Below, in pieces: positions 695 to 32,360 of a DNA stretch of 64,000 bases. Origin of the DNA: a virus. The DNA lies in IMG/VR virus record IMGVR_UViG_3300046001_005260, positions 4,036-68,035 of that record; one strand, written 5' to 3'. Each line of letters begins with the position of its first letter. Within the stretch, counting starts at the first letter, position 1. The notes beneath the pieces were generated by a model. The model saw only the letters and a program-made list of their open reading frames with translations, searched no databases and was not told the DNA's origin. A program made the position numbers and the translations under genes.

Positions 695-697
695 AAG

Positions 698-11293: not shown

Positions 11294-11470
11294 TCATTTT
11301 TCAGCGAAGATTTGAGCGGCAACCAGCGCGGCGTTGACGCCGACAGCATCCGGCCCGGTCGTGGTGATCGTGGTGCCGTCCGGCAACTTCGTAACCGTCG
11401 TGGTGCAACTGGTCATCGACCAGCAAAGCAAGCCGAGAGCGGCAATGGCGAACAAATGGCGCGTTTTCAT
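11294..11470 (-). CDS. Small lipoprotein (spanin candidate)
   Basis: Signal peptide with lipobox MTSC; counterpart of 52747-52893. Confidence 0.65.
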   Translation of the reverse strand: MKTRHLFAIAALGLLCWSMTSCTTTVTKLPDGTTITTTGPDAVGVNAALVAAQIFAEK

Positions 11471-11514
11471 CGCGGCAATGTCGCCTTTCGTGGCCCCCGG
11501 ATGCAAGGTTAGGC

Positions 11515-11526
11515 AATGGCCCCCGA
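11515..11526 (-). promoter_or_regulatory. Late-promoter box for the lysis cassette
   Basis: TCGGGGGCCATT-N8-TTGCAT-N17-CGACAT-N7-ATG; a second partial box lies within the spacer. Confidence 0.7.
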
Positions 11527-13472: not shown

Positions 13473-13503
13473 GCCATCACTTTTCCGCGCGCGTGCGCCA
13501 TCG

Positions 13504-13767
13504 TCAAGCGTCCGAAATGGCCCCCGGCGTAGTTACTAGCCCAGCCTCCACAAACGCGGCCAGAAGCCTATCTCTGCGCAATCTTGCCTTATCCGCGGAA
13601 TGAGTCTTCATCCCGATCTTGATTCGGCTTCCGGTGAGCCCCTTGTCGCGTGTTATGGTTACGCGCATAACCCAATACCCGCTCGCGCGCCGGTGCAGGT
13701 GATGATTCGGGTCGTCCATTCGGGCGGCAGAGCATTCGACAAGGCGGAGTCTGGTTGGTGGTGTCAT
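13504..13767 (-). CDS. Small basic DPNHHL-motif protein (putative DNA binding)
   Basis: Homologue of 55010-55282 at the same position before terS. Confidence 0.7.
   Translation of the reverse strand: MTPPTRLRLVECSAARMDDPNHHLHRRASGYWVMRVTITRDKGLTGSRIKIGMKTHSADKARLRRDRLLAAFVEAGLVTTPGAISDA
13516..13527 (-). promoter_or_regulatory. Late-promoter box for terS
   Basis: CCGGGGGCCATT-N8-TTGACG-N17-AAAAGT-N6-ATG. Confidence 0.75.
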
Positions 13768-14063
13768 GGTTTTTTGCGTGATTTCCGGTAAGCGGCCATC
13801 TTGCACGATGACCGGCAAAACTTCTGTGTCTTCATCATGACCACGAATCTTGACCCGCATTCCCCACAGAATCGGACTTCCTCCGATGGCTCCTTGATCT
13901 CGCGCGGCTTGTAAGCGCCTCGTTTCTCCTTCTCCCGCGCCGCTTCCACGTTCCAGCTTTCCCGCTTCATGCCTCTGGTTGCCAGCCAGGCGTCGCACGC
14001 TCGCCCGACCGACTGGCTTAGGAATTTCATCGGCTGCGATTCGTCTATGTCAATGTCTCTCAT
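13764..14063 (-). CDS. Hypothetical protein with C-terminal zinc finger
   Basis: CGECG...FCRSSC; the VGRACD segment is shared with 56472-56657. Confidence 0.65.
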   Translation of the reverse strand: MRDIDIDESQPMKFLSQSVGRACDAWLATRGMKRESWNVEAAREKEKRGAYKPREIKEPSEEVRFCGECGSRFVVMMKTQKFCRSSCKMAAYRKSRKKP

Positions 14064-14136
14064 GGTGTTGGTTGGTGATGCGTCAAGGATTGCCAGATTG
14101 GCCCCGATGGCAAGCGGTTTTTCTAACCGTTGCAAA

Positions 14137-14389
14137 GTAACGGACTAGGTAACGGTCGCTGTTACCACGCAAGTCATTGGAATTCAAGCCTTTGCCCGCC
14201 TGAGAGAGAGAGTAACAGAAAAATGTACATAATAATAATATAGCGGGCGCGCCCGCGCCCACACACCCGCGCCCACACCCGCGCCCCCAAGCGCCTCTAC
14301 AGCGGACGGTGCTGTTACCGACCGATTCCGGCGCAAAAACACTGTGATTGCAACAAGTTACGAATAACAAAACCGGTTACGGTGGTAAC
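14137..14389. other. Putative replication origin of phage A
   Basis: Seven GTAAC/GTTAC pentamers, an AT-rich core and CCCGCGCCC repeats in a non-coding gap after the primase-helicase. Confidence 0.55.
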
Positions 14390-14423
14390 AAAAAGCCCCG
14401 AAATGCGCGTTGCACTCCGGGGC
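14390..14423 (-). terminator. Intrinsic terminator after the primase-helicase
   Basis: GCCCCG/CGGGGC stem followed by TTTTT on the minus strand. Confidence 0.65.
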
Positions 14424-14478
14424 GGTTTTGGTTCAAACGGTCGTTTGAAACTTTGTTTTGCTGCCGATTTTCCGAATT

Positions 14479-17118
14479 TCACACCGGAATTTCCACCGCC
14501 CGCTGCCTCACATGCGATCCAAAAGCCATCGTTTCCACCCGCTTTGCACCTTTGACGCGCTCCAATTGCAGCTTCCACTTTGCCCCTGCCCATGCCGTGT
14601 CGGTGAAGATTTTCTCCAATAACTGGTGACGGTTGGCGACAAATAGCGCCTCGCCTTCTAGCTTCATCCCGTGCCTGAGTAGGGTCTTTCGGAACTCATC
14701 ACGGCGGAAGTTCTCTGCCTCGACTGGCGTGTATTCCGGCAGCGCGTGAATCTCTGCGATGATCTCACTGACAGACATGGTTGCGCCGTGTCCTTGAATC
14801 TCAAACCGGATTGGAGCGGCGAACAGGTGAGCCAGGCATTGATTCTCGTCGTTGTCAACGTCTTCCGACCTGAAGCCGGACCAGTCCTGCTGTGCCATCC
14901 ATGAGCGCGCCGCCTGCTTCGTGATTTCCTTGCCGCTGGTCAACGAGTATGCACCGGCAAGTAGCGTGCCGATTTGGTCTGCGCTGCGCTTGTCGCCGGT
15001 GAATTCGACAGCGACCGATGAGAATGTTTCCGTGTTGGTGTTGATCGTTTTGGCATGCCTGAGTGACCGGCTTCGGATTCGCTCACAATAGCCATCTGAG
15101 CCGACCGTGTCACGCCATAGGGACTTGATGCGGTCGAAGTCCTCCTGCGCGTATGGACCTGTATTCTTGCGCAGCGGCAGCACCGTCACGCGGCTGGTGT
15201 CGGCTTTCTTGACCGCGGCGACGCCGATGCTGGCGAAAAGGAACATGGAACGGATCATGTAAGTGATTGACCCGCCCGATGCCGTCCCCTTGACGATTCC
15301 TGCGCCGGTTTCCGTTGACGCTTGGCGGGCGAGTTCTAAAACACCGTTAAACCGGATTTGGCTTGCTCGGTCTTCGCTCTCTGCCTCGTCAAATACCACC
15401 GGCAGCGCGTCGCTGCCCAAATGACCGCGTATCCCGGCCTCGCTGGTGTTGCCCTGAACATGCAGCGCGGTGCGCCCAACAAGCGGGTGAATGATGTTCG
15501 CCACCGTCCACGACTTGCCGCTGCCCGATGGACCAGTAACCCACAAATGCGGACGCCACCCGAGCGCCCCGCAGATAGGAGCGAGCGCAATCCACCCGGC
15601 AAGGAGTTTCCCGAATAGCGGTTGCTCCCAAGATAGCAACTCGCACAATTCAATCAGCCGGGCAGCTTGCGCGTTCGTGGCAACCTCGGCAGAATCCACG
15701 GGTATTTCCAGCGCGCCTTCGTAGATTGCCCGAACGGCGCTTGAAAACGTCGGTATGTCAACCTCGCGACCGTTAACAACCAGCTTATCCCCGGCGTGGA
15801 AAACCACGTCCGCGCCGTCAATCCAGCATCCGCGCCCGCGTATCCGGCGTGGGTCGAATTTCGGCAGGGTTTGACTGCGTTGGATCAGCGCGTTGGTTGC
15901 CGCGTCCCAGTCGGCACCCTGCTTCGTCGGGTATTCAGCCTCCCAGATTTGAAGCGGGGCTAGGCGCATGAGATTGTTTTTCGAGTGCGCTGAGGCTGAT
16001 AGACTCACGATTTGCTGCCCGCTGTCCGGCATGTAAAAAAATGAGTCACCGTCAACTCCCAAGAGCCGGAACGGCAAGTCTCCGATTCGGTCATCTTTCC
16101 ATTTGCGCTGTGGCGGCGCTGTGGTTGCCTCAACCGGCACGGCGGTATCATCAGGGCAGTTGTATCCCGGCGGAGGTTCAGGCGCGTCCTGTGTCGGCGT
16201 GGCGGGCGGTTTGAGCCATGCCAGCAACTTCGCGCTATCCCATCCCTCCGCCACCGCGTCGGCCAAGTCCCATCCCTCCGCAACTCCGGCGGGGGGCTGG
16301 ATGATACGAACCTTGCCGGCAATGCCGGAGAGCGCCCCGGCGATAGCCCGCGCCGCGTCATGCCCGGGCGCGTCGGCATCCGGCCAAATCAGCACTTTCC
16401 GACCTGCCAGCGGTTGCCAATCGACATACCGAACGGCCTTGGATCCTCCCGGCCACGTCACCACCACGCCGGGGCAGATAGTCCGCGCGGCGTCGGCGGC
16501 TTTCTCGCCCTCGACCACGATCACCCCGGCGTCGGGATTGTTGGCAAGCAAATCCAGCCCGTAAAGCGGGCGGGGTTTTGGGAATGATTGAAACCGCCAT
16601 TCGCGCCGATCCCCTGATTGGCAGTAGGTTTGCGGCAGAATATCCTTGTGGCCTTCCGGCAGGTTGAAGCGGTGAATGTATCCGATCACCCCACCATCAG
16701 CCGTCCGGTAGGCCCAGCTTGCCGATGGCGTCCCGTGCCGCTTGTGGCGAAACACAGGCGACGGGACGCCATCCGGCACCGGCACTATCGGCAGCCAATC
16801 CTGCTTCGTTGCCGCTGGTTGCCACTCAGGCGGCGCAAGGTTGGCTTGCAGGCGGGCGTCAATCTCCCGCGCAGCCTCGGCCATCGTGCATGACCGGATA
16901 GCGGCGAGCAATCCGATAGGATCGCTCCCGCCTTGTCCGCTGGCAAAATCCTTCCAAACCCCGGAGCGCAGATTGATGGACAATGAGCGCCCCGGTTCGC
17001 CGGACGTTGACCCTACCTTCAGTTCGTTGCCTTCGCGGTGTCCGTTAGGAAACCATTCAGCGAGGAGTGACGGAAGGGATTGCAGCGCGGCTGCGGCGAT
17101 GGCTTGGAAGTCGATCAT
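14479..17118 (-). CDS. TOPRIM primase / P-loop helicase fusion
   Basis: TOPRIM motifs VVEGEKAADA and WPDAD; Walker motifs GPSGSGKS and VVFDE. Confidence 0.85.
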   Translation of the reverse strand: MIDFQAIAAAALQSLPSLLAEWFPNGHREGNELKVGSTSGEPGRSLSINLRSGVWKDFASGQGGSDPIGLLAAIRSCTMAEAAREIDARLQANLAPPEWQPAATKQDWLPIVPVPDGVPSPVFRHKRHGTPSASWAYRTADGGVIGYIHRFNLPEGHKDILPQTYCQSGDRREWRFQSFPKPRPLYGLDLLANNPDAGVIVVEGEKAADAARTICPGVVVTWPGGSKAVRYVDWQPLAGRKVLIWPDADAPGHDAARAIAGALSGIAGKVRIIQPPAGVAEGWDLADAVAEGWDSAKLLAWLKPPATPTQDAPEPPPGYNCPDDTAVPVEATTAPPQRKWKDDRIGDLPFRLLGVDGDSFFYMPDSGQQIVSLSASAHSKNNLMRLAPLQIWEAEYPTKQGADWDAATNALIQRSQTLPKFDPRRIRGRGCWIDGADVVFHAGDKLVVNGREVDIPTFSSAVRAIYEGALEIPVDSAEVATNAQAARLIELCELLSWEQPLFGKLLAGWIALAPICGALGWRPHLWVTGPSGSGKSWTVANIIHPLVGRTALHVQGNTSEAGIRGHLGSDALPVVFDEAESEDRASQIRFNGVLELARQASTETGAGIVKGTASGGSITYMIRSMFLFASIGVAAVKKADTSRVTVLPLRKNTGPYAQEDFDRIKSLWRDTVGSDGYCERIRSRSLRHAKTINTNTETFSSVAVEFTGDKRSADQIGTLLAGAYSLTSGKEITKQAARSWMAQQDWSGFRSEDVDNDENQCLAHLFAAPIRFEIQGHGATMSVSEIIAEIHALPEYTPVEAENFRRDEFRKTLLRHGMKLEGEALFVANRHQLLEKIFTDTAWAGAKWKLQLERVKGAKRVETMAFGSHVRQRAVEIPV

Positions 17119-17132
17119 GGTTGGCGGGTTGG

Positions 17133-19853
17133 TTATTGTTGGCCCATTGGTTTTGCGCTCATAGACTCAAGCTCCGCCAAGTCGAACAGGCTCGGCATAG
17201 TTATCTCCGCTTCCGCCGCTTGGCAGTATGAGCAAGCGTCGAGGTAATAAGCGTGATTGAGTTCAAAGCCAATTCCTTTTCTGCCTTTCAGAATTGCACG
17301 GTAAGGCACGGTGCCGATCCCGGCGAACGGGTCAAACACAGTCTCACCCGGCATGGTGAATTGCTCAATGCATCGGTCAGCGATGTCGAATTGCATAGGG
17401 CAAAGGTGCATTTCCTTGCCATGACTCCACTGCGAGGCATTTAGCGTCATCATGCGAGTGATGTCTGTCCACACGTCATCGGACCAGCTTTGCGGCTGCA
17501 AAAGCATGAACGTCACCGGCAGCATTCCAAGCGCGTCAATCGCTTCGCCGAATTTGACGTGATTCTCAAACGAATAAACAGTGTCCAAGCTGTGCGCTTT
17601 GAAAAGCTGGAATATATCAGCGTGGGTTAGTCCTTTCAGGTCGTCACATGTAAGCGGACGGTCGCCACTGCTGCGGGTGAATCCATGTGCGTCAGTCTGC
17701 CAACGTGAGCGGCTATAAACCCGACTCTTGGTTTTCTTGTGGAATTTCACCGGAACAATGTCTCCGCCGCACTCGCACGTTTCCGATGTGAGTTTTGCCA
17801 TGTCTTTCTGAGTATATACCCGCCCGCATTCGTCGCAGATATGTTCACGGCCCGTGTATTTCACGACAGGCTCATCCGCGTAACTATCGCTCGTTTCAGT
17901 TGGTGGTTTCCGGAACATGAGCAGATACTCCGGCATTCCTACTCCCATCTTTGAGCCGTCCTTGCATTGCTCTGTCCAACCAAGGCGATAGGTTTGATTA
18001 TTCTCCCTCACCACGTCTGTTACAATGGTTTTCATGCCCATGTATGCAAAGCCATGCTTCACGAAATGGCGCGTGGTTTCCATGTGGAACGGATAGACGG
18101 TTTGAAAACCTAGCCCGGTCATGCCACCCGGCACGATGCGGTCCTTGACATGGATGATTGCCAAGCGACCAGGCTTCAATGCGCGAAGCAATGAAGGCGT
18201 CAAGTAATCCATTTGCCCGAAAAACTCTTCGTTTCCTTCGCTGTGTCCGAAGTCAGCGTAGTTCGGTGAGTATTCGTATTGAGTTGAGAACGGGATGGAT
18301 GTCAGAATCATGTCGAGACTATTCTCGGCAAGCTCAGCCGTGCCTTTCACTGTATCCTCATTGGTTAGAGCAAACCGCTCGCCTTTGCAGACAATGGCGC
18401 TATCAATGCCCATGCCTCTTGTCAGGTGTTGAGCCATTGCTGCCTGTGACAGCCCGAATTTTTGAATAATCTCAGTCATGTTCTTAACCATAATAATGTG
18501 TTGTTGCCATTTTCTTTCGAGTGTCTTTTTAACGGCATACTCGGCTTCCGTATAGATGATGTCTATTCTTACTTTCTTTGTTTGCAGGAATCGGTAAGTC
18601 CGGTGGATTGCTTGAATGAAATCCGCGAACTTGAACCCTATCCCCACAAAAATTTCCCATGCGCAAAACCTTTGGAAATTGCACCCACTCCCGGCGATAA
18701 CCGGCTTAGTTGATAGAGTTGCAAAGTCGCCGTTAGAGAATCCAATGATCCGACGCTCACGCTCGTCCATATCTTGGCACCCCCAGACAGCCAGAGAGTC
18801 CGGCAACGCATCTTGAATTGCTCGGCGCTCATCTTCCAAGTCATGCCATACCAAACAATGATCAAGCGGGTTAGATTTGCGAAGCTCTACCATCTTTTCA
18901 ATCCTCTTCGCCATGCTCGCCCGTTTTTCCGCGCTTGCATCTTGCACTCCAATAGCTGCGTCCCTCATGAGCTTGCCTTGCCCCATTTTGTCGAATCCAA
19001 GGTTAGAATAATCACTTTCCACGCAATGCCAATGAACATCCATCTCTGGCAATGAATAACCTTCATCCGTGAATCCAAGGTCGGAAGGCTTTTGCACGAA
19101 TAGCGCCCAGCTTGCTACCCATAGCCAGAACTCCTCCTCCTTATGAGCGTGCAACGTGAGCTTGTCGGCTTTAGTTGAGTCTCGTTTGAAGAATCTGGTC
19201 TTGGCTTGGCTAACGTCCATAATGCCCAAGAAATCAGCGTAGCAAAGAAGCTCGATGTATTCGTTAGGCGATGGCGTGGCAGTTGCGACAAACCGATATT
19301 TCACGGTCTTCTTGTCTCCGCGTGATCGTCCGGTTGGCCCGCCGTCTCCGGTGCATAGCAGCATGAACTCCCGAAAGGTCTTGCTGCCACCGAACCCGCG
19401 CAAGATTGCGGCCTCGTCAAGTGATACAACCAAGAACTCAGCGGGGTCCAGCTTGCCATCCCTAACGGTCTCATAGTTGGTTAGGTAGATTCCGGTTGGA
19501 CCGGCTTCTTCAATCCTGCGAATGAATTTAGGCGGTGTTTCCCATCCAAGAATCTCTGTCGCATCGCGGGCAAACTCTTGCCGCACTCCGAGCGGGCAGA
19601 CGATCAATCCGCGCCCTCCTTCGTTTTCCGTGATGATCCTGGTTGTTTCTAATTGCACCACGCTCTTTCCAAGCCCGAATGATGCAAAGCAAGCTCGCCG
19701 CCCGCCTTTTACCATCCATTCAACCATTGCTCGCTGGTGCGGCTTTAGGGCGTGATTGATTCCTGTCGCGTCGATTGTTACTCCGTCATCGCAAGCCATG
19801 CGGACTTTGCTTTTCAGGAATTGATCGTAGTCTGTGTTTTGTTTCGTTGTCAT
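17133..19853 (-). CDS. SNF2-like helicase / N4-N6 DNA methyltransferase fusion
   Basis: GLGKS, LDEA and TATP helicase motifs; TSIPF and DPFAGIGT methyltransferase motifs (beta-class order). Confidence 0.85.
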   Translation of the reverse strand: MTTKQNTDYDQFLKSKVRMACDDGVTIDATGINHALKPHQRAMVEWMVKGGRRACFASFGLGKSVVQLETTRIITENEGGRGLIVCPLGVRQEFARDATEILGWETPPKFIRRIEEAGPTGIYLTNYETVRDGKLDPAEFLVVSLDEAAILRGFGGSKTFREFMLLCTGDGGPTGRSRGDKKTVKYRFVATATPSPNEYIELLCYADFLGIMDVSQAKTRFFKRDSTKADKLTLHAHKEEEFWLWVASWALFVQKPSDLGFTDEGYSLPEMDVHWHCVESDYSNLGFDKMGQGKLMRDAAIGVQDASAEKRASMAKRIEKMVELRKSNPLDHCLVWHDLEDERRAIQDALPDSLAVWGCQDMDERERRIIGFSNGDFATLSTKPVIAGSGCNFQRFCAWEIFVGIGFKFADFIQAIHRTYRFLQTKKVRIDIIYTEAEYAVKKTLERKWQQHIIMVKNMTEIIQKFGLSQAAMAQHLTRGMGIDSAIVCKGERFALTNEDTVKGTAELAENSLDMILTSIPFSTQYEYSPNYADFGHSEGNEEFFGQMDYLTPSLLRALKPGRLAIIHVKDRIVPGGMTGLGFQTVYPFHMETTRHFVKHGFAYMGMKTIVTDVVRENNQTYRLGWTEQCKDGSKMGVGMPEYLLMFRKPPTETSDSYADEPVVKYTGREHICDECGRVYTQKDMAKLTSETCECGGDIVPVKFHKKTKSRVYSRSRWQTDAHGFTRSSGDRPLTCDDLKGLTHADIFQLFKAHSLDTVYSFENHVKFGEAIDALGMLPVTFMLLQPQSWSDDVWTDITRMMTLNASQWSHGKEMHLCPMQFDIADRCIEQFTMPGETVFDPFAGIGTVPYRAILKGRKGIGFELNHAYYLDACSYCQAAEAEITMPSLFDLAELESMSAKPMGQQ

Positions 19854-24622: not shown

Positions 24623-25594
24623 TCAGCGTAATGCGGAATCGGTTATCGCTGCTTGGATGAATTGCGCGGCGACTTGCGGCACGATTGCATTGCCGTAGCC
24701 CCGCAAGAGTCCCACGCGACCGGGAAACCCATCAGCCAGCGGGAATGTCCCGCTCTCAACACGCCTCGCTTTTCCGTCTGTGCATAGGAGGATGTCGAAG
24801 GAATCCCAAGCGTTGCCTCGCAGTTCAACGGTAGCGAGTTCCTGTGGAATTGTGACGGGCCCGCATTGTTCGCCGAGTCCTGCACCGTTGGTGTTGCCCA
24901 CCCCACAAGGTCCGGCACATTCTGCGGCGTCATGCGTGGTCGGGCCCCTCCGTGATCTTTCCCGCGATTGGTCGAGTTGTTGGGCCCCTCGCTCGCCTGC
25001 GGCGTCGGCCACCCCGCTAGCTGTGCTGCTGTTTGCAGCGAGTCGCCGCCCTGTCTCGTTTCCGTCCAGCTTGCACCAGTCCCCTCGCTCGCCTGCGGCG
25101 TCGGCCACCCAGTAGAGTCTTTGGCGGATGTGGGGCGCGCCGACGCCCGCAGCGCACAGATCGGCACCCGCCGCGGCATATCCCATTGTTTCCAAGTTAG
25201 CGAATACTCCAGCGAGCCATTTACGTCCACCAGCGCTCGCAACCTGCTCTCCAAAGACGACTGAAGGGCTGCACCGATTGATGAGGCGACGGAACGCTGG
25301 CCATAGATGACGCGGATCATTTCGGCCCAACTGCTTCCCGGCGTGGCTGAATGGTTGGCACGGGCAGGAGCCTGTCCAAACGGGACGATCTTCGGGCCAT
25401 CCCGCCAGTTGAAGAGCGAGAGGCCATCCGCCGATCCCGGCGAAGAAGTGGCATTGAGTGTATTCGGTGAGTTCATTAGGTTCAATTTGTGTGATGGATC
25501 GTTCATCGACCACGCCGGGAGGAATCAGGCCGGCGGCGATTAGTTCGCGCAGCCATGCTGCGGCTTTCGGGTCAAATTCGTTGTAAAAGTTCAT
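24623..25594 (-). CDS. C5-cytosine DNA methyltransferase, alpha chain
   Basis: FFAGIGG, SCPCQPFS, GEQV, PHIRQRLY and LRGYGNAIV motifs; no motif IX in this frame. Confidence 0.88.
   Translation of the reverse strand: MNFYNEFDPKAAAWLRELIAAGLIPPGVVDERSITQIEPNELTEYTQCHFFAGIGGWPLALQLAGWPEDRPVWTGSCPCQPFSHAGKQLGRNDPRHLWPAFRRLINRCSPSVVFGEQVASAGGRKWLAGVFANLETMGYAAAGADLCAAGVGAPHIRQRLYWVADAAGERGDWCKLDGNETGRRLAANSSTASGVADAAGERGAQQLDQSRERSRRGPTTHDAAECAGPCGVGNTNGAGLGEQCGPVTIPQELATVELRGNAWDSFDILLCTDGKARRVESGTFPLADGFPGRVGLLRGYGNAIVPQVAAQFIQAAITDSALR
24643..25506 (-). CDS. Overlapping alternative-frame ORF: putative methyltransferase beta chain
   Basis: 287 open codons nested in the methyltransferase gene; GWPTP repeats and RWLMGFP (motif IX-like). 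Confidence 0.7.
   Translation of the reverse strand: MNDPSHKLNLMNSPNTLNATSSPGSADGLSLFNWRDGPKIVPFGQAPARANHSATPGSSWAEMIRVIYGQRSVASSIGAALQSSLESRLRALVDVNGSLEYSLTWKQWDMPRRVPICALRASARPTSAKDSTGWPTPQASEGTGASWTETRQGGDSLQTAAQLAGWPTPQASEGPNNSTNRGKDHGGARPRMTPQNVPDLVGWATPTVQDSANNAGPSQFHRNSLPLNCEATLGIPSTSSYAQTEKRGVLRAGHSRWLMGFPVAWDSCGATAMQSCRKSPRNSSKQR
24985..25110. repeat. 30-bp exact direct repeat (24985-25014 and 25081-25110)
   Basis: CCCCTCGCTCGCCTGCGGCGTCGGCCACCC occurs twice; encodes GWPTPQASEG in the nested frame. Confidence 0.9.
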
Positions 25595-27444
25595 TTATCA
25601 GGATTCCTCCGGTAAAACCTAGTATTGTATCCGTTGCCGGGTTTCTGCGTTCTAACGTCCACGCCTTTAAGCAACCAATCCGCGTGCCTGTCCTCGACGT
25701 TCTTGCGGCTTAGCCATTTCTCGCCGTAGATGTTTGAGACGAGGTATTTGCCCTCCACGGGGTCAAATCGGATGATGGTGTTTTCGTAAAACCGCGTGCC
25801 GTCCGGTAGCGGTGTGTTGTCGAATATGCTCATGGCTTTTCTTGTCCTATCGGTCTTCCGAAAATGTCAGTTATGGTTCCGTCAGCGTGCCAAACCTTGC
25901 CTTTTTCGACAATGACTTTCCCTCCGTAAACGGAAAACGATTGAAATACTACATGGCCTCTTTCGCTTTCCGTGGTTGACCCGATGACTCGGTATTCTCG
26001 CCCACCGATGGTTTTGATTTTCGATTTGTAACTCATGACTTCGTTAGTTTCGCAATCAGCGTTCTCAGTCTCGATTCAATCTCTCCGGCAGCGGCAACAC
26101 CCTCCGGCGTAATAACCCACTTCCGAAACCCTGGGAATTTAATCGCCCGCGCAAGTCCCCGGCCTACAAGTCCGTCCATCGTTGAGGGTGAGATTTGATA
26201 CCCGGTGGATTTTCGGACCTCGCACAATTTAACCGGCCCGGTGTAACGTGCCTGCCCTAACAGCGCGATAGTCGCCACGATTGGCAGGTCAGTGGTTTTT
26301 CGCGTGCGGATCTCGAGCTTGGTGCCGAGTTCGTCGCATGGGAGCGTTCGTATGTATTTCAGGAACTCCAACGGGGTGATTATGGGGGTGGCGGTCATTT
26401 GGATTCCTCCCACAGGTTTAGCGCTTTCAAGAATGCCTCGGCGCGTTGGGCGGCGGTTGCAAATATCCACCGTTGCGACATCGGCACGACCTTATCAAGC
26501 GATGCCTCGTAAGCGTGAAACTTCGGATCATTTGCTAGCGTCATCTCCGCCTCGTGCATCGCGTTTAGGTCGTTTAGGTAGTCGGGGGGATCGTTCCACG
26601 CGCCTCCTTGCGGAGCAATCCATTGACTCATTCTGTGATCGTTCCGTCTTTTCCACCCGCACGCTTGCGCAATCGCGATTCGTTGTTGCTCAGGGTTCAT
26701 TCTTCGTCCTCCTCGATCAGTGAGCGCAAATACAGCGTGTGATATTCCTCAGCGCTAGCAAACCGGAGCCATGCGTTAAACGCGCAGTATGCCGCCATGA
26801 TTCCGCACCAAATAGCGGTCTTAGGAAACCCATACATGACGGCGCAAACACAGGTAGCGATTGCAGCGATGCAAAGCGATGTTTGCAGGATGGCCCCAAA
26901 ACACGCGGAACGCCATTGGATGCGGTAATACTCGTTTGTGGGGATTCGTCGGGTGTTCATTTTCTGAGTTGCTTGTGTTCTTCAATTGTCATCGTTCCGG
27001 AGATTCCGGCTTTCTTTCCGTAGTATCGCGATTGGATTTCAGCATCGCGGCAGCATTCGCCGCACGGCAGGCAGACAAGCCCGCCAGCAATAAGCGACAT
27101 GGCTTTCGGTTCGCCTTCGATTTGTTCTACGCACAAGGCGCAAGGGGTGGCGATGTTGTTCATGGTTTGCAGTTGGTTAGGATGTTACCAACGATTTTCT
27201 GCCCGGCGACGCTGCGAGAAACAACCCGCTCGCCGTCTTCCGTGAACTGGATGCGAATAAGCTTCTTTGCTTTGAGTGCCTGGAGCCTCCCGTTTAGCGT
27301 CTGCAAGGCGATTCCAGCCGTTGCGGCGAGTCGCTGGGTGGTTTGCTCCCGGTCGCATAAAAAAAGGAGAGACGCCTCTTTCAGGCCCATCTTGTGCGAG
27401 TTGGCGAGGCGGGTTAGCGCGTCGATGAATTGTTGTTTTGTCAT
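25591..27444 (-). CDS. Run of seven small genes (25591-25833, 25830-26036, 26033-26398 wHTH-like, 26395-26700, 26697-26960 membrane, 26957-27163 Cys-rich, 27160-27444 wHTH-like)
   Basis: ATGA-coupled ORFs; 26033-26398 is homologous to 55826-56194. Confidence 0.65.
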
Positions 27445-27920
27445 TGGATTTCAAAGGTGAATTTTTCCATTGCCGCGATGATTTCGCTTGCCTCATTGAG
27501 AGCGGTCCACTTGCGGCGGAACGTCTCAACATCGGACTTGCACTTCCGGAGGACTTGCGCCCGGTAATGCTCGCTTGTCATGGCGTTATGAGTGCTGACA
27601 TAGATTCCCCGCGTGCCTGCGTCTGGATCTTCATCAGCGCATTCCCGGCGCTCTGGCGTGACGTTGACGAATGCCCGAACCTGCACGGTTTTTTCATCCG
27701 CAGTTTGGTAAGTTACCTTGATTCTGCGAATGAGGCAGGCGGCTTGAACGAGTCGGTATTGAGCGGCAGCTTTCGAGTTGTCCCACTGGAAAAAGCGGTG
27801 CAGCGGAGAGGTTTTCGCCTTTGCCGCTTCCAGCACGATTTCCGGCGTGAGTTGCCCGTGTTTTTCTGCGAGTTCGCGGATTGCGTCTGATGCTTTCGGT
27901 TTGTTTTCTATGTCAGTCAT
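27441..27920 (-). CDS. Conserved phage protein; candidate partner of the Cas7-like gene
   Basis: LTPE.V..A....SPLH..F.WD...AA..YRL.QA..LIR motif; directly after the downstream array. Confidence 0.75.
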   Translation of the reverse strand: MTDIENKPKASDAIRELAEKHGQLTPEIVLEAAKAKTSPLHRFFQWDNSKAAAQYRLVQAACLIRRIKVTYQTADEKTVQVRAFVNVTPERRECADEDPDAGTRGIYVSTHNAMTSEHYRAQVLRKCKSDVETFRRKWTALNEASEIIAAMEKFTFEIQ

Positions 27921-27948
27921 TGTTTTGTTTGGTTTGTGTTGGATGGGT

Positions 27949-28106
27949 GATTTATACCGCTCTCCCGTGCGGTTTGTGCCTGCGATGCCCTGCCACGCCC
28001 CGCCCCGCCCCGCCATTCCCAGCCTGCGATGCCTGGCCAATCCCGGCCCCGCCTTGCCGTTCCTGCGGTGCTGAGCCCTGCCTTGCCGGTCCATGCCGGG
28101 CCTGCG
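27949..28106 (-). ncRNA. Downstream GGH-NN pentamer array (three guide-like units plus terminal hairpin)
   Basis: CGCA-(GGCCC GGCAT GGACC GGCAA GGCAG GGCTC AGCAC)-CGCA-(7 periods)-CGCA-(8 periods)-CGCA GGCAC, then hairpin ACCGC/GCGGT and ATAAATC. Confidence 0.8.
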
Positions 28107-28164
28107 AAGGCTGGCAAAACATCGGCTTGGCTGGCGTTTGGCATTGGCTTGCGGTTGGTGAGTG

Positions 28165-28797
28165 TTAGGCCAGCTTGAAGGTTCCCCATCCCATCCCGGC
28201 GCTCATCTTGCTATCCGGCCTGCCTTCTCCGATCCCGACTTGCGCCCCGACTCGCGTCATAAGGTTTGCCGCGTCAGTCGCCGTGAATTGATCCGCATCG
28301 TATTGCACTCGCACGGTTGCCGACCATGGCCAGAACTTCGCACGAACCCGCAAGTCACAAACTCCGGTCGCGTTGCGAGCGTGCATCAGGTGGGATTCAG
28401 GCTCGCCTTCGATCTTGATTAGCGGCACGCCGTCCACCTTGTCAAACCCGTCTGGAAGGATGAAAACCGACAGCTTGGCCAGCGTCATCTTGAATCCAAC
28501 CAATCGACAAGCTGAAATCATAGCATTGCGAAATGCTGCCGCCGGTATGCCGTTCCATCCTTCATCGGATAGATGCTGCGCGCCGATGAAATCCGCGTGG
28601 AAATCCCGAGCTTCTTTCGCCTTTTTCTTGTTGGCTTGACTCCCTGCTTCGTGCTTGTCACGCATGGCGTTGATTGCCTTTTCGGAAAACCGCAACTGGA
28701 TATAAGGCGCGGTGCCGACGATTTGAAACTCCGCCGTATGGATGCGCGGTGCTGTGATGGATACGTTTTCGATTTGTTGCTTTTCTTTCGTGCTCAT
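28165..28797 (-). CDS. Stand-alone Cas7/RAMP-like protein
   Basis: First strand FQIVGTAPY; GIPAAAFRNAM (compare IPGSSLKGAL of Cas7-group RAMPs); C-terminal Gly-rich loop GIGEGRP...GMGWGTF. Confidence 0.7.
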   Translation of the reverse strand: MSTKEKQQIENVSITAPRIHTAEFQIVGTAPYIQLRFSEKAINAMRDKHEAGSQANKKKAKEARDFHADFIGAQHLSDEGWNGIPAAAFRNAMISACRLVGFKMTLAKLSVFILPDGFDKVDGVPLIKIEGEPESHLMHARNATGVCDLRVRAKFWPWSATVRVQYDADQFTATDAANLMTRVGAQVGIGEGRPDSKMSAGMGWGTFKLA

Positions 28798-28842
28798 GTT
28801 TGTATTTGGTTGGTGTTTTGTTTTGTCTGGGAGAATGCGGCG

Positions 28843-28999
28843 GATTTTATACCCCGGCCCGCCAACCGGATTTTGCTATGCCCGGCCCGGACCTGCCCTG
28901 CCATGCCTCGCCTGCGATGCCTTGTCTGGCCGTAGCTTGCCAAGTATCGCGATTCCTGCGGTGCCTTTATATGCCTCGCCTCGCCTAGCGATTCCTGCG
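28843..28999 (-). ncRNA. Upstream GGH-NN pentamer array (three guide-like units plus terminal hairpin)
   Basis: CGCA-delimited units of 7, 8 and 8 pentamers, then hairpin CCGGTT/GGCCGG and GGTATAAAATC. Confidence 0.75.
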
Positions 29000-29106
29000 G
29001 TGGCGGTCATGGTTTGGTATTGGTGAGAAAAACTGGCTTCTCTTTTTCACTGAGCCTGTCTAGGACCGGATTTAATGCCCGACGTCACCGGGCAGCCAGT
29101 GGGGGA

Positions 29107-29283
29107 TTATTTCGCGGCGATGGCGAGGAGTCGGAAAGTCTCGTTGATCTCGGCTGCGGCTTCTTTTGGCGAAACCTCGCCACGGTGGCAAGATGCCGCG
29201 AGCCGTTGGGTTGCCGCGTAGGCGATGCCCAGGGCGGTTGCTAGTTCGGTGATGCGGTCGATTGTGATGGTGTCTGCGGTCAT
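29107..29283 (-). CDS. 58-aa helical hypothetical protein (not in the ORF track)
   Basis: MTADTITIDRITELATALG...LLAIAAK after an AACC-rich leader. Confidence 0.65.
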   Translation of the reverse strand: MTADTITIDRITELATALGIAYAATQRLAASCHRGEVSPKEAAAEINETFRLLAIAAK

Positions 29284-29304
29284 TGGTTGGTGGTGGTTGA
29301 GGTT

Positions 29305-29321
29305 GCCGGGGTCGAACCGGC
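29305..29321 (-). ncRNA. tRNA T-arm-like hairpin
   Basis: GCCGG-TTCGACC-CCGGC, after the stop codon of 29330-29548. Confidence 0.6.
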
Positions 29322-29329
29322 GGGATTGG

Positions 29330-29548
29330 TTAGGCGATAGCGCGAAAGATTGGACACATTGAATATTTGCCCATCGCGTAAATGAATTCGCTGTCTCCGT
29401 CGTTCATGACCTTGACGCGCTTCGTGTTGCCTTGGACTTTCACGGTGGCGAATGATCCTTTGCGCTCAATCACTTGCGCGGTGAATACGCATTCATGGTC
29501 GCAAATGCTGCGAGCTTTCAGAGTTTGGCCGGATTTGATCGTTGTCAT
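29330..29548 (-). CDS. Small beta-rich early protein (first gene of operon)
   Basis: 72-aa ORF directly after a promoter. Confidence 0.75.
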   Translation of the reverse strand: MTTIKSGQTLKARSICDHECVFTAQVIERKGSFATVKVQGNTKRVKVMNDGDSEFIYAMGKYSMCPIFRAIA

Positions 29549-30078: not shown

Positions 30079-31017
30079 TTACGCATCAAACACGTCGTCC
30101 GCTGGCTTGGCTTCTACCGCATGTTCCGGTTCCGCTGGCGTATCGGTCGCTGGAGACGCCTTGCGCGCCCGTGTGGACGTCGTGGCGGCATTTGGCGGGG
30201 CGTCCAAGATGTCCGACGCTTCGCGCTCCGGCTTGGCTCCGCCGAACCAGTCGCCAGCTTTTGACATGCCGGATTTCAACGAGTTGAAAATCCCTTGCAG
30301 GTCGGCAATCTCATCGGGCAAGATGGTATCCAGCGAATGCGCTAAACGAGCCTCGATCATCGCGGCCGTCACGCCGAATTTGCCGAACGCCTTAATCATC
30401 TTCCGCGCCCGGTCCGCAATCGGCTCGTCATTGCCTCCGGCGAGCGTCCGGCGGCATTCGCTTAACGCAGCCTCCACGATGTCGGGCGGCAGGATGGACA
30501 GGATGCGAGCGCGCAACCTCCGCGCGCCCTGGTTGGCGGTGAGTTCGTAAATGTCGCGCTCGTCCTTCAACTCAATCCCTCCGCCCTTGGTATCGCGAAT
30601 GTGGCGAACGCTGAATTTCTGAGAGCTTGACGTGTTGGTTTCCAAGTCCCAAGCGTAAGCCTCCATTTCGCTCAACCCGTCCCGCCGCGATAGCTCCCGA
30701 ATGCCGTAGTCGATGTTGCCCCATACCCGCGCCAATTCCTCGGCAAGTCGGATGGATGGACCCGACACGGTTTGCCCGCCGCGTGGGAATGAATATGTGG
30801 CTTCTTCCGCCAGTCCGACCCGCTTGCATGAGTCGATGATTTTCGAGTAAGCGCGCGCCTCGTTTCGCGGGAATCGCTTGGCGATTACCAACTTGCCTTG
30901 AGCCTCCGCGACTGCCCGCGATGATTCGATTTCGACGGTCCCGGCGTTGACGTGTTCCGACAAGCTGCGGGCGAATGGATTGACCAGCGAGGTCGTGGTG
31001 GTTAATTCTGTGTTCAT
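30079..31017 (-). CDS. Putative ssDNA-annealing / recombination protein
   Basis: AKRFPR, YSFPRGG..V.GPSIRLAE and WGNI motifs; close to the exonuclease gene; disordered acidic tail. Confidence 0.6.
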   Translation of the reverse strand: MNTELTTTTSLVNPFARSLSEHVNAGTVEIESSRAVAEAQGKLVIAKRFPRNEARAYSKIIDSCKRVGLAEEATYSFPRGGQTVSGPSIRLAEELARVWGNIDYGIRELSRRDGLSEMEAYAWDLETNTSSSQKFSVRHIRDTKGGGIELKDERDIYELTANQGARRLRARILSILPPDIVEAALSECRRTLAGGNDEPIADRARKMIKAFGKFGVTAAMIEARLAHSLDTILPDEIADLQGIFNSLKSGMSKAGDWFGGAKPEREASDILDAPPNAATTSTRARKASPATDTPAEPEHAVEAKPADDVFDA

Positions 31018-31023
31018 GGTTGG

Positions 31024-31509
31024 TTAGTATGTTCGGTGTGGATTCTTGCGGACTTCGACCAGCGCCGCCGATAGGTCAAGCGAGGCGCGCTTCATGGCAG
31101 ATCGCTTACGGCATGGCCCGCTCTCGTTTTTGTTTTGGATTGCTTTCCTTGCCAGAGAAACAAACCTCTCAGCTTGTGATATGGCTTCTTTTACTGCGGT
31201 AAACTCGATGAGTGTCATGGTTTGTTATTGTTCGGATTCTAGGATTTCTCGGACGCGGATATGCTTGCGTGTTCCCATTCCGCTGCTTTGAAATAGTTCG
31301 CCATCATCAAGCCACATTCTCCACTCCCTCGGCTTTGGCGGTTCGGGCTTGCGGCGGTATTCGGCGCATGTTCTCCACTCTGGATGCGAATCCATCTTTC
31401 GCCAGTTTTTAGCTTCGTTCATTTTTGATTCCCACCGTTCCCACGGCGTCTCCGTTGTCATTGCATCCTTGGCGTATTCCGCCATCAATTCAGCGTGTTT
31501 GTGTTTCAT
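31024..31509 (-). CDS. Two small hypothetical proteins (31024-31218, 31225-31509)
   Basis: ORFs with A/C-rich leaders. Confidence 0.6.
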
Positions 31510-31526
31510 GTTTGGTTGGTGTTTTG

Positions 31527-32360
31527 TTAAGCCCATTTGGGCAGGTCTATTTCGGTTACTCCGCGCGTTAAACCCGGCCACTCGCCGGTTTCAAGACACC
31601 GCGCGTAGGTGTCGAGATCACGTTGATATTCCATCCGACCGCGCATTATCATCGCGTCGGTGGCTACATAGCAAGCGGATAGATAAGGAGGATCCTTCTC
31701 AATCGCTAAGAACATAAATCCACGCGGCATTTCTCCAAACGCCTCCGCGTATCCGTCGCTGTAAAACGCCGCCTGGACGTGGTAGCGAAACGCGGCTATT
31801 GACTTAGCGAACGGATCCGGCGCGGCGTCTCTGGTGGTTTTCAGGTCAAGGATCGCACCGCTGGTTAGAATCGCGTCTGGCCGGCACCGGCATTCTATGT
31901 CGTTTGACTTCCAGAAAATCGACGTTTCGGCGAGTTCGATTTGCGAAAGTGCCTTGCGTGCTATCGGATCGGCCCATGCGGCGTCACGGGTTGCGAGGAG
32001 TTCCGCGTGTTCATCAATCGTGATTGGTTCACGGTCGATCACCGCTGCGTCGAATGCCTGCCACCACGCAATCGCTTCAAGGGTTGCTGTGGATGGTTTC
32101 TTGGCTTCTCTCTGCTTCTTGGTCGGCCTGCTTGGCGCGTCATCAGGGATAATTATCACGCTGTCAGCGAACTTGTCCGGCTCCAAAATCGCCGTATGCA
32201 CCAAGCTGCCCCATCGCATCGCATCCGTGCGCGGCGTCGGGTTGTCGCGCCGGTAACGGTAAAGCGCCGGAGCGCGGGCGATTAGGTCTAGACCGGATTT
32301 CGAGATTGACGGGTTGGCGTGGTAGTCGGGGTTTGATATGTTTGGGTGGATGGTTGTCAT
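31527..32360 (-). CDS. PD-(D/E)XK exonuclease (RecE/ExoVIII C-terminal, DUF3799-like)
   Basis: YH....ISKSGL, GSLVH..ILEP, CRCRPD....DLKTT and YHVQAAFY motifs. Confidence 0.88.
   Translation of the reverse strand: MTTIHPNISNPDYHANPSISKSGLDLIARAPALYRYRRDNPTPRTDAMRWGSLVHTAILEPDKFADSVIIIPDDAPSRPTKKQREAKKPSTATLEAIAWWQAFDAAVIDREPITIDEHAELLATRDAAWADPIARKALSQIELAETSIFWKSNDIECRCRPDAILTSGAILDLKTTRDAAPDPFAKSIAAFRYHVQAAFYSDGYAEAFGEMPRGFMFLAIEKDPPYLSACYVATDAMIMRGRMEYQRDLDTYARCLETGEWPGLTRGVTEIDLPKWA

What the first reader, a model, noticed from the sequence alone, without database searches (positions are those of the whole stretch)
27949..28999. Candidate RNA-guided system: lone Cas7/RAMP-like gene between two GGH-NN pentamer arrays (non-contiguous guide code)
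Seen in sequence (minus strand): both flanks of 28165-28797 have a strict 5-nt period made of a near-constant triplet (mostly GGC, sometimes GGA or a variant) and a variable dinucleotide. A CGCA linker cuts them into units. Upstream: U1 28995-28961, NN = AT TA GA GA AT AA AC; U2 28956-28917, AT GA TT AA AC CA AA AT; U3 28912-28873, GA AT AG AG CG CG AT AA. Downstream: D1 28102-28068, CC AT CC AA AG TC AC; D2 28063-28029, AC AA GG CG TT CA AT; D3 28024-27985, TG AT GG GG GG GT AG AT. Established knowledge: the protein has the RAMP/Cas7 hallmarks (first strand IVGTAP, IPxxxFRxAM helix, C-terminal Gly-rich loop GIGxxRP...GWGxF), and Cas7 proteins polymerise along guide RNA at a fixed number of nucleotides per subunit. 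There is no cas1/2/3/5/6 and no repeat-spacer CRISPR in the window. Inference: each subunit grips one GGH triplet and displays the NN bases, so each unit is a guide spelling a 12-16-base, probably gapped, target, perhaps used to silence a competing phage or host genes. This matches my recollection of recently reported viral VIPR loci (GGY/NN guide RNAs); I cannot verify that here.
Basis: partly seen in the sequence, partly recalled or inferred. Interest (0 to 1): 0.97.

Follow-up and report, generated by a model that had tools for sequence, protein, structure and literature searches.

The report
VIPR guide-RNA locus in a lake phage
This is a phage-borne VIPR system, a small Cas7-like protein flanked by GGC-NN repeat guide RNAs of a kind first described in 2026 preprints, so it is a real and well-read example of a known system, not a new one.

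Summary
On the minus strand, two GGC-NN pentamer arrays cut by 4-nt CGCA junctions flank ORF 28165-28797; they are the only such arrays in the 64 kb.

- **Protein:** it models confidently (pLDDT 94) as a single-domain Cas7/Csm3-type RAMP (Z 11.4). Its only significant sequence relative in the PDB is the SUSP1 Vipr protein (profile E 1.3e-6; HHalign 95%, 175 columns).
- **Relatives:** 39 of 40 related loci carry arrays on the vipr strand and none on the other. In 163 unique units GGY is fixed and NN is near-random.
- **Array ends:** arrays end in a conserved tail whose two helices covary as a pseudoknot.
- **Partner gene:** the 159-aa gene at 27441-27920 is conserved beside vipr, so the RAMP is not "lone".
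- **Context:** no Cas1, Cas2 or CRISPR array; the record is a lake-water phage.

This fits the VIPR systems of four 2026 preprints, including their "staggered arrays with 1-nt overlap". Differences from the studied SUSP1 type are multi-unit arrays with one tail, shorter units, a G-loop insertion and an accessory protein unrelated to vap1. I found no natural targets and no RNA data. Verdict: new member of a known kind.

The parts
29000..29036 (-). Conserved leader just upstream of the first array (TCTCACCAATACCAAACCATGACC..CAC); a possible transcription start region, with no consensus promoter found
   Evidence: Nearly identical in the closest relative L002 while the array interior differs. No sigma-70-like site was found in 27300-29400.
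28873..28999 (-). Upstream vrRNA array: CGCA + U1 (28995-28961, 7 pentamers), CGCA + U2 (28956-28917, 8), CGCA + U3 (28912-28873, 8). U1 and U2 have degenerate triplets.
   Evidence: U2 is conserved as the first unit of L002's array.
28837..28872 (-). 3' tail of the upstream array, a proposed H-type pseudoknot: S1 CCGG 28869-28866 with CCGG 28857-28854; S2 GGCGG 28863-28859 with CCGCC 28843-28839; loop GGTATAAAAT
   Evidence: Covariation across 22 distinct tails and alignment A2. Nested-fold energy is no better than shuffles.
28165..28797 (-). vipr: 210-aa single-domain RAMP (Cas7/Csm3-like) protein
   Evidence: AF2 pLDDT 94. Foldseek and VIA-align hit Csm3 and type VII Cas7, Z up to 11.4. The family profile hits SUSP1 Vipr at E 1.3e-6 and HHalign gives 95.2%. 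phrog_4652.
27981..28106 (-). Downstream vrRNA array: CGCA + D1 (28102-28068, 7 pentamers), CGCA + D2 (28063-28029, 7), CGCA + D3 (28024-27985, 8), then a terminal CGCA
27945..27980 (-). 3' tail of the downstream array: GGCAC AAA, S1 CCGC 27972-27969 with GCGG 27960-27957, TATAAA, and a weak S2 (GGG 27966-27964 with CCC 27947-27945)
   Evidence: This copy has the weakest S2 but one of the 22 tails.
27441..27920 (-). vap-like accessory gene, 159 aa (phrog_15946). Its N-terminal ~110 residues weakly resemble winged-helix DNA-binding domains.
   Evidence: Beside vipr in 35 of 40 related loci and in 33 phage records. AF2 pLDDT 83.8. VIA-align wide Z 4.4-5.6, nearly all winged-helix chains. No similarity to SUSP1 vap1.

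Best explanation
The locus is a VIPR (Viral Interference Programmable Repeat) system of the 'staggered array' architecture, carried in the early region of a lake-water phage. The minus strand reads: leader, array U1-U3, tail, vipr, array D1-D3, tail, vap-like gene.

Proposed mechanism, by analogy with the characterised SUSP1 system:
1. The arrays are transcribed with the genes.
2. Vipr protomers bind the RNA one per pentamer, sequester each GGC and display the two variable bases.
3. The 4-nt [C/G]GCA junction shifts the 5-nt register by -1 and so delimits units of 7-8 protomers.
4. A pseudoknot caps the 3' end of each array.
5. Each ribonucleoprotein binds double-stranded DNA whose sequence reads NNxNNx... 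(one skipped base per repeat) and blocks transcription of a competing phage, satellite or prophage gene.
6. The winged-helix-like partner assists on DNA.

Shown here: the sequence anatomy, the RAMP fold, homology to SUSP1 Vipr, conservation of GGY against near-random NN in relatives, strand specificity, tail covariation, the conserved partner gene, and the phage context without cas genes.

Inferred: transcription, unit processing, RNP assembly, the 1-nt skip rule for this clade, DNA rather than RNA as target, silencing as the outcome, and any role of the partner.
For: **Anatomy.**

**Protein.**
- AF2 model: pLDDT 94.0, pTM 0.87.
- Foldseek: 42 PDB matches at E <= 0.001, the listed ones chains of type III Csm/Cmr, Cas7-11 and type VII effector complexes.
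- VIA-align: Z 11.4, rmsd 3.2, 147 residues aligned over residues 17-210. Entries titled Csm3 score Z 10.2-10.8 (5yjd_A, 6nbt_B, 6ae2_A).
- A profile of 65 family members against all PDB sequences finds one significant chain, 36pp_D 'SUSP1 Vipr protein', at E 1.3e-6.
- HHalign of that profile against the SUSP1 vipr gene product: probability 95.2%, E 2.8e-8, 175 columns covering nearly the whole protein.
- SUSP1's GGY-contact residues R138, D177 and R179 align to R152, E191 and R193. R152 is nearly invariant and R193 invariant in the family.

**Relatives.**
- 38 IMG/VR loci and 2 genome contigs encode 51-97% identical proteins.
- 39 of 40 have arrays of at least 6 perfect GGY pentamers on the vipr strand, and 0 of 40 on the other strand.
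- All 41 loci, window included, have junction-delimited units. Across 163 unique units the entropy is 0.27, 0.27 and 0.60 bits at positions 1-3 and 1.92 and 1.97 bits at positions 4-5. The junction is GGCA in 103 and CGCA in 60.
- The closest relative (97% protein identity) keeps leader and tail nearly identical but has a different number and content of units.

**Tail.** In 22 distinct tails S1 always pairs, in two compensating versions (13 and 9). S2 uses at least 8 different complementary sequences.

**Partner.**

**Context.** The record is an IMG/VR virus record with a RecE-like exonuclease and a C5 methyltransferase nearby. There is no Cas1, Cas2, Pfam RAMPs match or CRISPR repeat.

**Literature.** The Fig. 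[quoted passage not shown] That is what a 4-nt junction in a 5-nt lattice gives.
Against: - **No expression or binding data.** No listed sequencing run holding this DNA is on record as RNA.
- **No target found.**
  - Self-matches in the window are at null level for skips 0, 1 and 2.
  - Exact 1-nt-skip matches in IMG/VR number 7 for D3 and 7 for U3, against 3 and 12 for composition-matched controls.
  - 136 guides of the clade show no preference among skip rules on about 300 kb.
- **Short guides.** Units carry only 12-16 variable bases, fewer than the 9-16 repeats of the studied type.
- **G-loop differences.** SUSP1's W178, which stacks on G2, aligns to an invariant glycine here, and the G-loop has an 8-residue insertion. 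GGY recognition may therefore differ in detail.
- **Accessory protein.** It shows no similarity to SUSP1 vap1 (HHalign probability 0.14%).
- **Degenerate parts.** U1 and U2 have degenerate triplets, and the downstream tail has a weak S2.
- **Staggered arrays unconfirmed.** The discovery preprint's main text says only ribozyme-interspersed and single-vrRNA architectures were confirmed by small-RNA sequencing.
Confidence: 0.85

Rival explanations
1. It is the same VIPR family, but each array works as one long, segmented vrRNA and is not cut into units. The 4-nt junctions would act as hinges between consecutive short filaments, so that one RNA reads several short target segments or bridges sites.
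For: There is only one pseudoknot tail per array, whereas every SUSP1 vrRNA has its own tail. No nuclease, ribozyme (Rfam: nothing) or internal promoter or terminator is visible between units. By the main text, staggered arrays were not among the architectures confirmed by small-RNA sequencing.
Against: The Fig. S18 legend speaks of 'individual processed vrRNAs'; I could not see the figure or its data. Units vary in number and order between close relatives like independent cassettes.
Confidence: 0.15
2. The locus is a decaying or non-targeting VIPR copy. The guides no longer match anything, or serve as decoys, and the system is no longer used for interference.
For: U1 and U2 have degenerate triplets, the downstream tail has a weak S2, and no targets were found.
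Against: - The vipr and vap-like reading frames are intact.
- The degenerate unit U2 is itself conserved in the 97%-identical relative, which argues for selection and against decay.
- D1-D3 are nearly regular.
- The target searches were badly underpowered, because the host and its resident elements are unknown.
Confidence: 0.07
3. The protein is an RNA-targeting Csm3-like effector that uses the arrays to bind or cut transcripts, not DNA.
For: The nearest solved folds are Csm3 and type VII Cas7, which act on RNA.
Against: In sequence it is related to SUSP1 Vipr and to no Cas7, and SUSP1 Vipr binds double-stranded DNA. No Cas10 or other effector partner is present.
Confidence: 0.04
4. The pentamer arrays are DNA-level elements, such as binding-site arrays for the winged-helix-like protein, and not guide RNAs.
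For: A DNA-binding-like protein is encoded beside them.
Against: - Arrays lie on the vipr strand in 39 of 40 loci and never on the other strand.
- The variable bases are near-random, unlike operator repeats.
- The tail shows compensatory changes, which implies selection on an RNA structure.
- The same repeat type co-purifies as RNA with Vipr in SUSP1.
Confidence: 0.03

Closest known systems
Type II VIPR of Escherichia phage SUSP1 and the Pseudomonas fulva prophage (bioRxiv 10.64898/2026.04.26.720920 and 10.64898/2026.04.26.720927)
   Same: - A small single-RRM RAMP protein, homologous over nearly its full length (HHalign 95.2%).
- GGY/NN pentamer RNA genes on both sides of vipr, on the same strand.
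- A 3' tail with a pseudoknot.
- A two-gene module in a phage, with no cas genes.
   Different: - SUSP1 has separate vrRNA genes of about 100 nt, each with GGT-rich repeats and its own tail (read). Here several units of 7-8 GGC repeats are joined by 4-nt junctions and share one tail.
- The gene order differs: SUSP1 has vipr-vap1 and then the array; here the array sits between vipr and the accessory gene.
- The accessory proteins are unrelated in sequence.
- The G-loop has an 8-residue insertion, and a glycine stands where SUSP1 has W178.
'Staggered vrRNA arrays' VIPR architecture (Fig. S18 legend of the discovery preprint)
   Same: Units abut with a one-base overlap of the pentamer lattice. 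Here and in all 40 relatives this appears as GGCA[A/T/C]-[C/G]GCA-GGC.
   Different: I could read only the legend; the figure and supplementary tables are closed. I therefore cannot say which of the seven types it belongs to, or whether this clade is among the 667 catalogued systems. By the main text, this architecture was not among those confirmed by small-RNA sequencing.
Csm3 / Cas7 of type III and type VII CRISPR-Cas
   Same: The RRM core, thumb and glycine-rich loop fold (Z 10-11.4 over residues 16-210). Polymerisation along a guide RNA at a fixed step is established knowledge for Cas7.
   Different: - No sequence-level membership: Pfam RAMPs, NCBIfam and PADLOC give nothing.
- No Cas10, Cas6, Cas1 or Cas2, and no repeat-spacer array.
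- The step is 5 nt with three bases sequestered, against the 6-nt step of Cas7.
VIPR-like 5-nt-period clusters recovered by a genomic language model (bioRxiv 10.64898/2026.10.21.760802; passages read)
   Same: Canonical GGY/NN arrays co-located with a Vipr-like fold in metagenomes. That study reports 99 such clusters.
   Different: It reports clusters, not this locus. Its non-canonical motifs (GAC/NN and others) are not what is seen here.

Membership tests
VIPR system | Vipr protein: minimal single-RRM RAMP fold with a thumb and a glycine-rich loop | tested here: met
   AF2 pLDDT 94. Foldseek and VIA-align match Csm3 and type VII Cas7, Z up to 11.4 over residues 16-210. The G-loop GIGEGRP...GMGWG is in the sequence.
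VIPR system | Sequence homology to an experimentally characterised Vipr (SUSP1) | tested here: met
   Family profile against the PDB: 36pp_D at E 1.3e-6, the only significant hit. HHalign 95.2%, E 2.8e-8, 175 columns. The single sequence alone gives only E 0.65.
VIPR system | YNNGG / GGY-NN tandem repeats (at least 4 units) in intergenic DNA flanking vipr | tested here: met
   Six units of 7-8 pentamers on both sides of the gene.
VIPR system | GGY conserved and NN hypervariable across related loci | tested here: met
   163 unique units from 41 loci: entropy 0.27/0.27/0.60 bits at positions 1-3 against 1.92/1.97 bits at positions 4-5. The arrays of a 97%-identical relative differ in content.
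VIPR system | Invariable 3' tail with a conserved structure (a pseudoknot in the SUSP1 clade) | tested here: met
   A conserved tail follows the arrays in most relatives. Both helices covary across 22 distinct tails. Support comes from covariation only: the energy test is negative, and the tail sequence is unlike SUSP1's.
VIPR system | Minimal non-CRISPR locus: no CRISPR array and no adaptation or other cas genes | tested here: met
VIPR system | A vipr-accessory (vap) gene in the operon | tested here: inconclusive
   A conserved partner gene exists (35 of 40 loci; 33 phage records). It is unrelated to SUSP1 vap1 and its winged-helix likeness is weak (Z 4.4-5.6).
VIPR system | Residues that grip GGY (SUSP1 H17, R138, D177, W178, R179) | tested here: inconclusive
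   R138, D177 and R179 align to R152, E191 and R193. W178 aligns to the invariant G192. The position of H17 is not reliably aligned.
VIPR system | vrRNAs are expressed and co-purify with Vipr | not testable with these tools
   This needs small-RNA sequencing and pull-down.
VIPR system | Targets obey the 1-nt skip rule (NNx), typically in competing mobile elements | tested here: inconclusive
   No enrichment over controls. The guides are short and the host is unknown.
CRISPR-Cas type III (Csm3/Cas7) | Match to Cas7/RAMP sequence families | tested here: not met
   Pfam gave no RAMP hit for the protein. PF03787 found no match in the record although its controls rang. NCBIfam and PADLOC gave none.
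CRISPR-Cas type III (Csm3/Cas7) | CRISPR repeat-spacer array and companion cas genes | tested here: not met
   No repeat-spacer array and no Cas1 or Cas2. Cas10 and Cas6 were not searched one by one.

The most novel reading that the evidence does not exclude
In this clade the guide boundaries are set by the lattice itself. The 4-nt [C/G]GCA junction breaks the 5-nt register of the Vipr filament, so each array self-partitions into short guides of 7-10 protomers without a Cas6-like nuclease or ribozyme. Only the last guide is capped by a pseudoknot, and a partner protein unrelated to vap1 acts with them. That would be a guide-maturation principle not yet shown experimentally for any RNA-guided system, in a VIPR branch that is abundant in lake phages and also present in Mycobacterium, Gordonia and cyanobacterial phages.
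Probability: 0.25. Interest if true: 0.6.

Novelty: new member of a known kind. Interest (0 to 1): 0.4.

Why it matters
VIPR is a very recently described way of reading DNA with RNA, proposed as older than CRISPR. This locus adds a clean, fully annotated example from an uncultured lake phage.

It shows that the staggered multi-unit array is conserved across a whole clade: 41 of 41 loci have junction-delimited units with a defined junction consensus, GGCA[A/T/C]-[C/G]GCA-G. It gives that architecture a covariation-supported pseudoknot tail and a conserved partner gene unlike vap1.

It also points to culturable phages that carry the same gene pair and are annotated only as hypothetical: Mycobacterium and Gordonia phages and Cyanophage Cy-LDV1. 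In those the unconfirmed processing of staggered arrays could be tested. It does not change what is known about how VIPR works.

Tried and rejected
**Family libraries.** Pfam, NCBIfam and PADLOC gave nothing for either protein. PHROGs gave only unknown-function families.

**RNA signals.**
- Rfam at E <= 1 over 27700-29200 gave one sub-threshold chance hit inside the gene, with no hammerhead.
- Nested RNA folding of both tails is no better than shuffles.
- The promoter and terminator scan found nothing on the minus strand.
- GGTATAAA is not a general promoter motif of the phage. Its two other copies lie in unrelated contexts.

**Target searches.**
- Self-targets in the window were at null level. 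The perfect skip-3 hits are the arrays themselves.
- IMG/VR exact scans of D3 and U3 gave 7 hits each, against 3 and 12 for controls with the dinucleotide order reversed. The counts are indistinguishable from chance.
- Three of the 7 D3 hits (L044-L046, one element family) lie 26 codons upstream of, and in frame with, a C5-methyltransferase gene homologous to the window's own. This was noticed after the fact, in high-GC contigs related only through that gene, and the other guides do not converge on it. I keep it as a lead only.
- 136 clade guides against about 300 kb showed no difference between skips 0, 1 and 2.
- A 16-base seed from an 11-repeat guide of L002 gave 5 hits, none extending beyond 3 of 6 further bases.

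**Accessory protein.** Foldseek found no match at E <= 0.001. VIA-align wide gave only Z 4.4-5.6. The ESM Atlas returned only unnamed viral clusters.

**Sequencing runs.**
- 20 runs were listed and no RNA holder is on record. Two wastewater runs guessed as RNA hold small shares that I did not lay.
- Contigs of four lake-water DNA runs laid on 27400-29300 show the same phage with 0 differences in places, and much deeper, diverged relatives over the conserved core of vipr. They give no information on transcripts or array variation.

**Host.** The only two genome-contig relatives are metagenome bins labelled Acidobacteria and Verrucomicrobia. I do not trust bins to assign phage contigs, so the host is unknown.

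**Not run.** I did not run complex prediction, because I make no claim that the two proteins bind each other. The supplementary figures and tables of the preprints are closed. They may list this clade, its type and its vap class.
Full report
**The observation.**

Read on the minus strand, ORF 28165-28797 is flanked by two stretches with a strict 5-nt lattice.

| Unit | Pentamers |
|---|---|
| U1 | GGAAT CGCTA GGCGA GGCGA GGCAT ATAAA GGCAC |
| U2 | GGAAT CGCGA TACTT GGCAA GCTAC GGCCA GACAA GGCAT |
| U3 | GGCGA GGCAT GGCAG GGCAG GTCCG GGCCG GGCAT AGCAA |
| D1 | GGCCC GGCAT GGACC GGCAA GGCAG GGCTC AGCAC |
| D2 | GGAAC GGCAA GGCGG GGCCG GGATT GGCCA GGCAT |
| D3 | GGCTG GGAAT GGCGG GGCGG GGCGG GGCGT GGCAG GGCAT |

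Each unit is preceded by CGCA. A scan of both strands of the 64 kb for at least 6 of 7 GG at 5-nt spacing finds only these two places, both on the minus strand. Twenty shuffles gave 0-2 short hits each. The upstream units U1 and U2 are clearly degenerate. A stricter criterion and Tandem Repeats Finder keep only part of D3.

**The protein.**

The 210-aa product has no Pfam, NCBIfam or PADLOC family and only an unknown-function PHROG, phrog_4652. It belongs to a very large family:
- 7905 of 8000 scored candidates passed E <= 0.001 in the word-indexed search.
- 2303 representatives of 50%-identity clusters passed in the exhaustive search.

With an alignment of 65 members, AlphaFold2 gives pLDDT 94.0 and pTM 0.87. 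Foldseek against the PDB returns 42 matches at E <= 0.001; the listed ones are chains of type III Csm/Cmr, Cas7-11 and type VII effector complexes. VIA-align gives Z up to 11.4 (rmsd 3.2, 147 aligned) over residues 16-210, and entries explicitly titled Csm3 score Z 10.2-10.8.

In sequence it is not a Cas7: the Pfam RAMPs model finds nothing in the record while its controls ring. The only PDB chain it matches is 36pp_D, 'SUSP1 Vipr protein'. The match is weak for the single sequence (E 0.65) and significant for the family profile (E 1.3e-6).

I fetched phage SUSP1 (KT454805). HHalign of the profile against its vipr gene product gives probability 95.2%, E 2.8e-8 and 175 aligned columns, nearly the full length. 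In that alignment SUSP1's G-loop GVGDWRPR--------FGRF lies over GIGEGRPDSKMSAGMGWGTF. So R179 and R138 have conserved counterparts (R193 invariant, R152 nearly invariant in the family), D177 becomes E191, W178 falls on an invariant glycine, and this clade has an 8-residue insertion.

**What is published.**

A full-text search finds four 2026 preprints.

- **Discovery paper** (10.64898/2026.04.26.720920). I read the Results, Discussion, four methods sections and figure-legend passages. It defines VIPR as a phage-encoded minimal RAMP (Vipr), usually with one accessory gene (vap), flanked by vrRNAs of 9-16 GGY/NN repeats that end in an invariable 3' tail. The variable dinucleotides pair with double-stranded DNA that skips one base per repeat, and the outcome is transcriptional silencing of competing phages or satellites. 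It names seven types and notes 'staggered arrays with overlapping vrRNAs'. The Fig. [quoted passage not shown] - **Cryo-EM paper** (10.64898/2026.04.26.720927; sections 5 and 6). It shows one protomer per repeat, GGY sequestered by two neighbouring protomers, and a 3' pseudoknot cap.
- **Third paper** (10.64898/2026.10.15.759431). I saw only the abstract and outline.
- **Fourth paper** (10.64898/2026.10.21.760802; passages). It recovers 99 VIPR-like 5-nt-period clusters from metagenomes.

**Relatives carry the same architecture.**

38 IMG/VR loci (51-97% protein identity) and two metagenome-bin contigs were fetched.
- By a strict criterion, 39 of 40 have GGY arrays on the vipr strand and 0 of 40 on the opposite strand. 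The arrays lie downstream only in 32 loci and on both sides in 7.
- All 41 loci, including the window, have units delimited by the junction.
- Across 163 unique units the lengths are mostly 7-10 pentamers. Positions 1-3 are G (0.96), G (0.97) and C (0.90) or T (0.07), with 0.27, 0.27 and 0.60 bits of entropy. Positions 4 and 5 carry 1.92 and 1.97 bits.
- The junction is GGCA (103) or CGCA (60). The pentamer before it is GGCA[A/T/C] in 131 of 163.

A 4-nt step in a 5-nt lattice is exactly a one-base overlap of consecutive units, which is the published 'stagger'. The closest relative (97% protein identity) shares a nearly identical leader and tail, but its array has a different number and content of units. 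Its first unit equals the window's degenerate U2. The degeneracy of U2 is therefore conserved and is not fresh decay.

**The tail.**

Most arrays end ...GGCAT AGCA(C/A) AAACCG..., followed by a GGGTATAAA motif. In 22 distinct tails the first helix always pairs and exists in two compensating versions: CCGC/GCGG in 13 and CCGG/CCGG in 9. A second helix joins the loop of the first to the bases after TATAAA. It uses at least eight different complementary sequences, for example GCGAT/ATCGC, TGGCGG/CCGCCA, TGGAGCG/CGCTCCA, ACTGG/CCAGT and GCTGGC/GCCAGC. That is the pattern of an H-type pseudoknot.

Nested-structure energies are no better than shuffles, and per-sequence shuffle tests are weak, so the support is covariation alone. 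The window's upstream tail fits well (5-7 pairs in S2); its downstream tail has only GGG/CCC.

Unlike SUSP1, where each roughly 100-nt vrRNA gene has its own tail, there is one tail per multi-unit array here.

**The partner gene.**

The 159-aa gene at 27441-27920 (phrog_15946) is found on the same strand beside vipr in 35 of 40 related loci. Two of the five misses are loci that end inside the array.

In the phage collection the Vipr homologue and this protein each hit 33 records: 27 Mycobacterium, 5 Gordonia and 1 cyanophage. All 30 records listed for Vipr recur in the partner's list, with the two genes adjacent.

Its model (pLDDT 83.8) has no Foldseek match at E <= 0.001. An exhaustive structural comparison gives only Z 4.4-5.6 over the N-terminal 110 residues or so, though nearly all of those rows are winged-helix DNA-binding domains. 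I treat that as a hint. It shows no similarity to SUSP1 vap1.

**Context.**

The window is part of a 68-kb IMG/VR virus record. The locus sits among early genes on the minus strand, including a RecE-like exonuclease, a phrog_3657 protein and a C5 methyltransferase. No Cas1, Cas2 or CRISPR-type repeat is present. Lake-water metagenome runs hold the same DNA.

**Targets.**

I applied the published 1-nt skip rule.
- Nothing in the window exceeds the null.
- Exact scans of IMG/VR gave 7 hits each for D3 and U3, against 3 and 12 for reversed-order controls.
- Three D3 hits fall just upstream of, and in frame with, a methyltransferase gene homologous to the window's own. They are one element family, seen after the fact, so this is only a lead.
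- 136 guides of the clade show no skip-rule preference on the 300 kb I hold.
- A seed-and-extend test with a long guide of the closest relative failed.

With 12-16 informative bases per unit and an unknown host, these searches cannot decide anything.

**Verdict.**

The locus meets every VIPR criterion that sequence analysis can test. It differs from the characterised type II systems in array architecture, unit length, G-loop detail and accessory protein. Expression, processing, binding and targets are inferred, not shown. It is a new member of a known kind. It is interesting mainly as a clean example of the staggered architecture, whose maturation has not been demonstrated, and as a pointer to culturable phages where that could be tested.

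Noticed in passing
window 1-40288 versus 40289-64000: The window holds two related, colinear phage genomes in tandem. tblastx matches run in order from about 1-19700 to about 40289-62700 at 30-88% identity. The second copy is cut off by the end of the record before its early region, so whether it has a VIPR locus cannot be told. This may be an assembly join of two related phages.
   Followed up: partly
window 24623-25594 (minus strand): A C5 cytosine methyltransferase gene (PF00145, phrog_363) with a second long overlapping frame (24643-25506) and an exact 30-bp direct repeat at 24985-25014 and 25081-25110.
   Followed up: no
L044:7490-7512, L045:3073-3095, L046:382-404: An exact 1-nt-skip match to guide D3 lies 26 codons upstream of, and in frame with, a C5 methyltransferase gene homologous to the window's. 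It begins at an ATG, and every skipped base falls on a third codon position (MLTPPPMH). This may be chance in high-GC DNA.
   Followed up: partly
phage records such as NC_051664.1 (37213-38205), MW534375.1 (10352-11590) and BK059895.1 (30927-32107): Mycobacterium phages (27 records), Gordonia phages (5) and Cyanophage Cy-LDV1 carry the same vipr plus partner gene pair, annotated only as hypothetical proteins. Their flanks were not examined for arrays.
   Followed up: no
window 28296-28551: In four lake-water runs the conserved core of vipr is covered by diverged contigs at summed depths of hundreds to about 1400 per 64-base bin (about 2000 at single positions), against about 3-12 for the phage itself. 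Vipr relatives therefore seem abundant in those waters.
   Followed up: no
window 27921-27944 and 28798-28836 (minus strand): The leaders before the two start codons are A/C-rich (such as CAAAACAAAACACCAACCAAATACAAAC) with no Shine-Dalgarno-like purine run. Similar leaders occur in the relatives.
   Followed up: no
window 30079-32360 (minus strand): A recombination module: a RecE/exonuclease VIII-like PD-(D/E)XK protein (31527-32360, DUF3799, phrog_412) followed by a phrog_3657 protein of unknown function (30079-31017).
   Followed up: no
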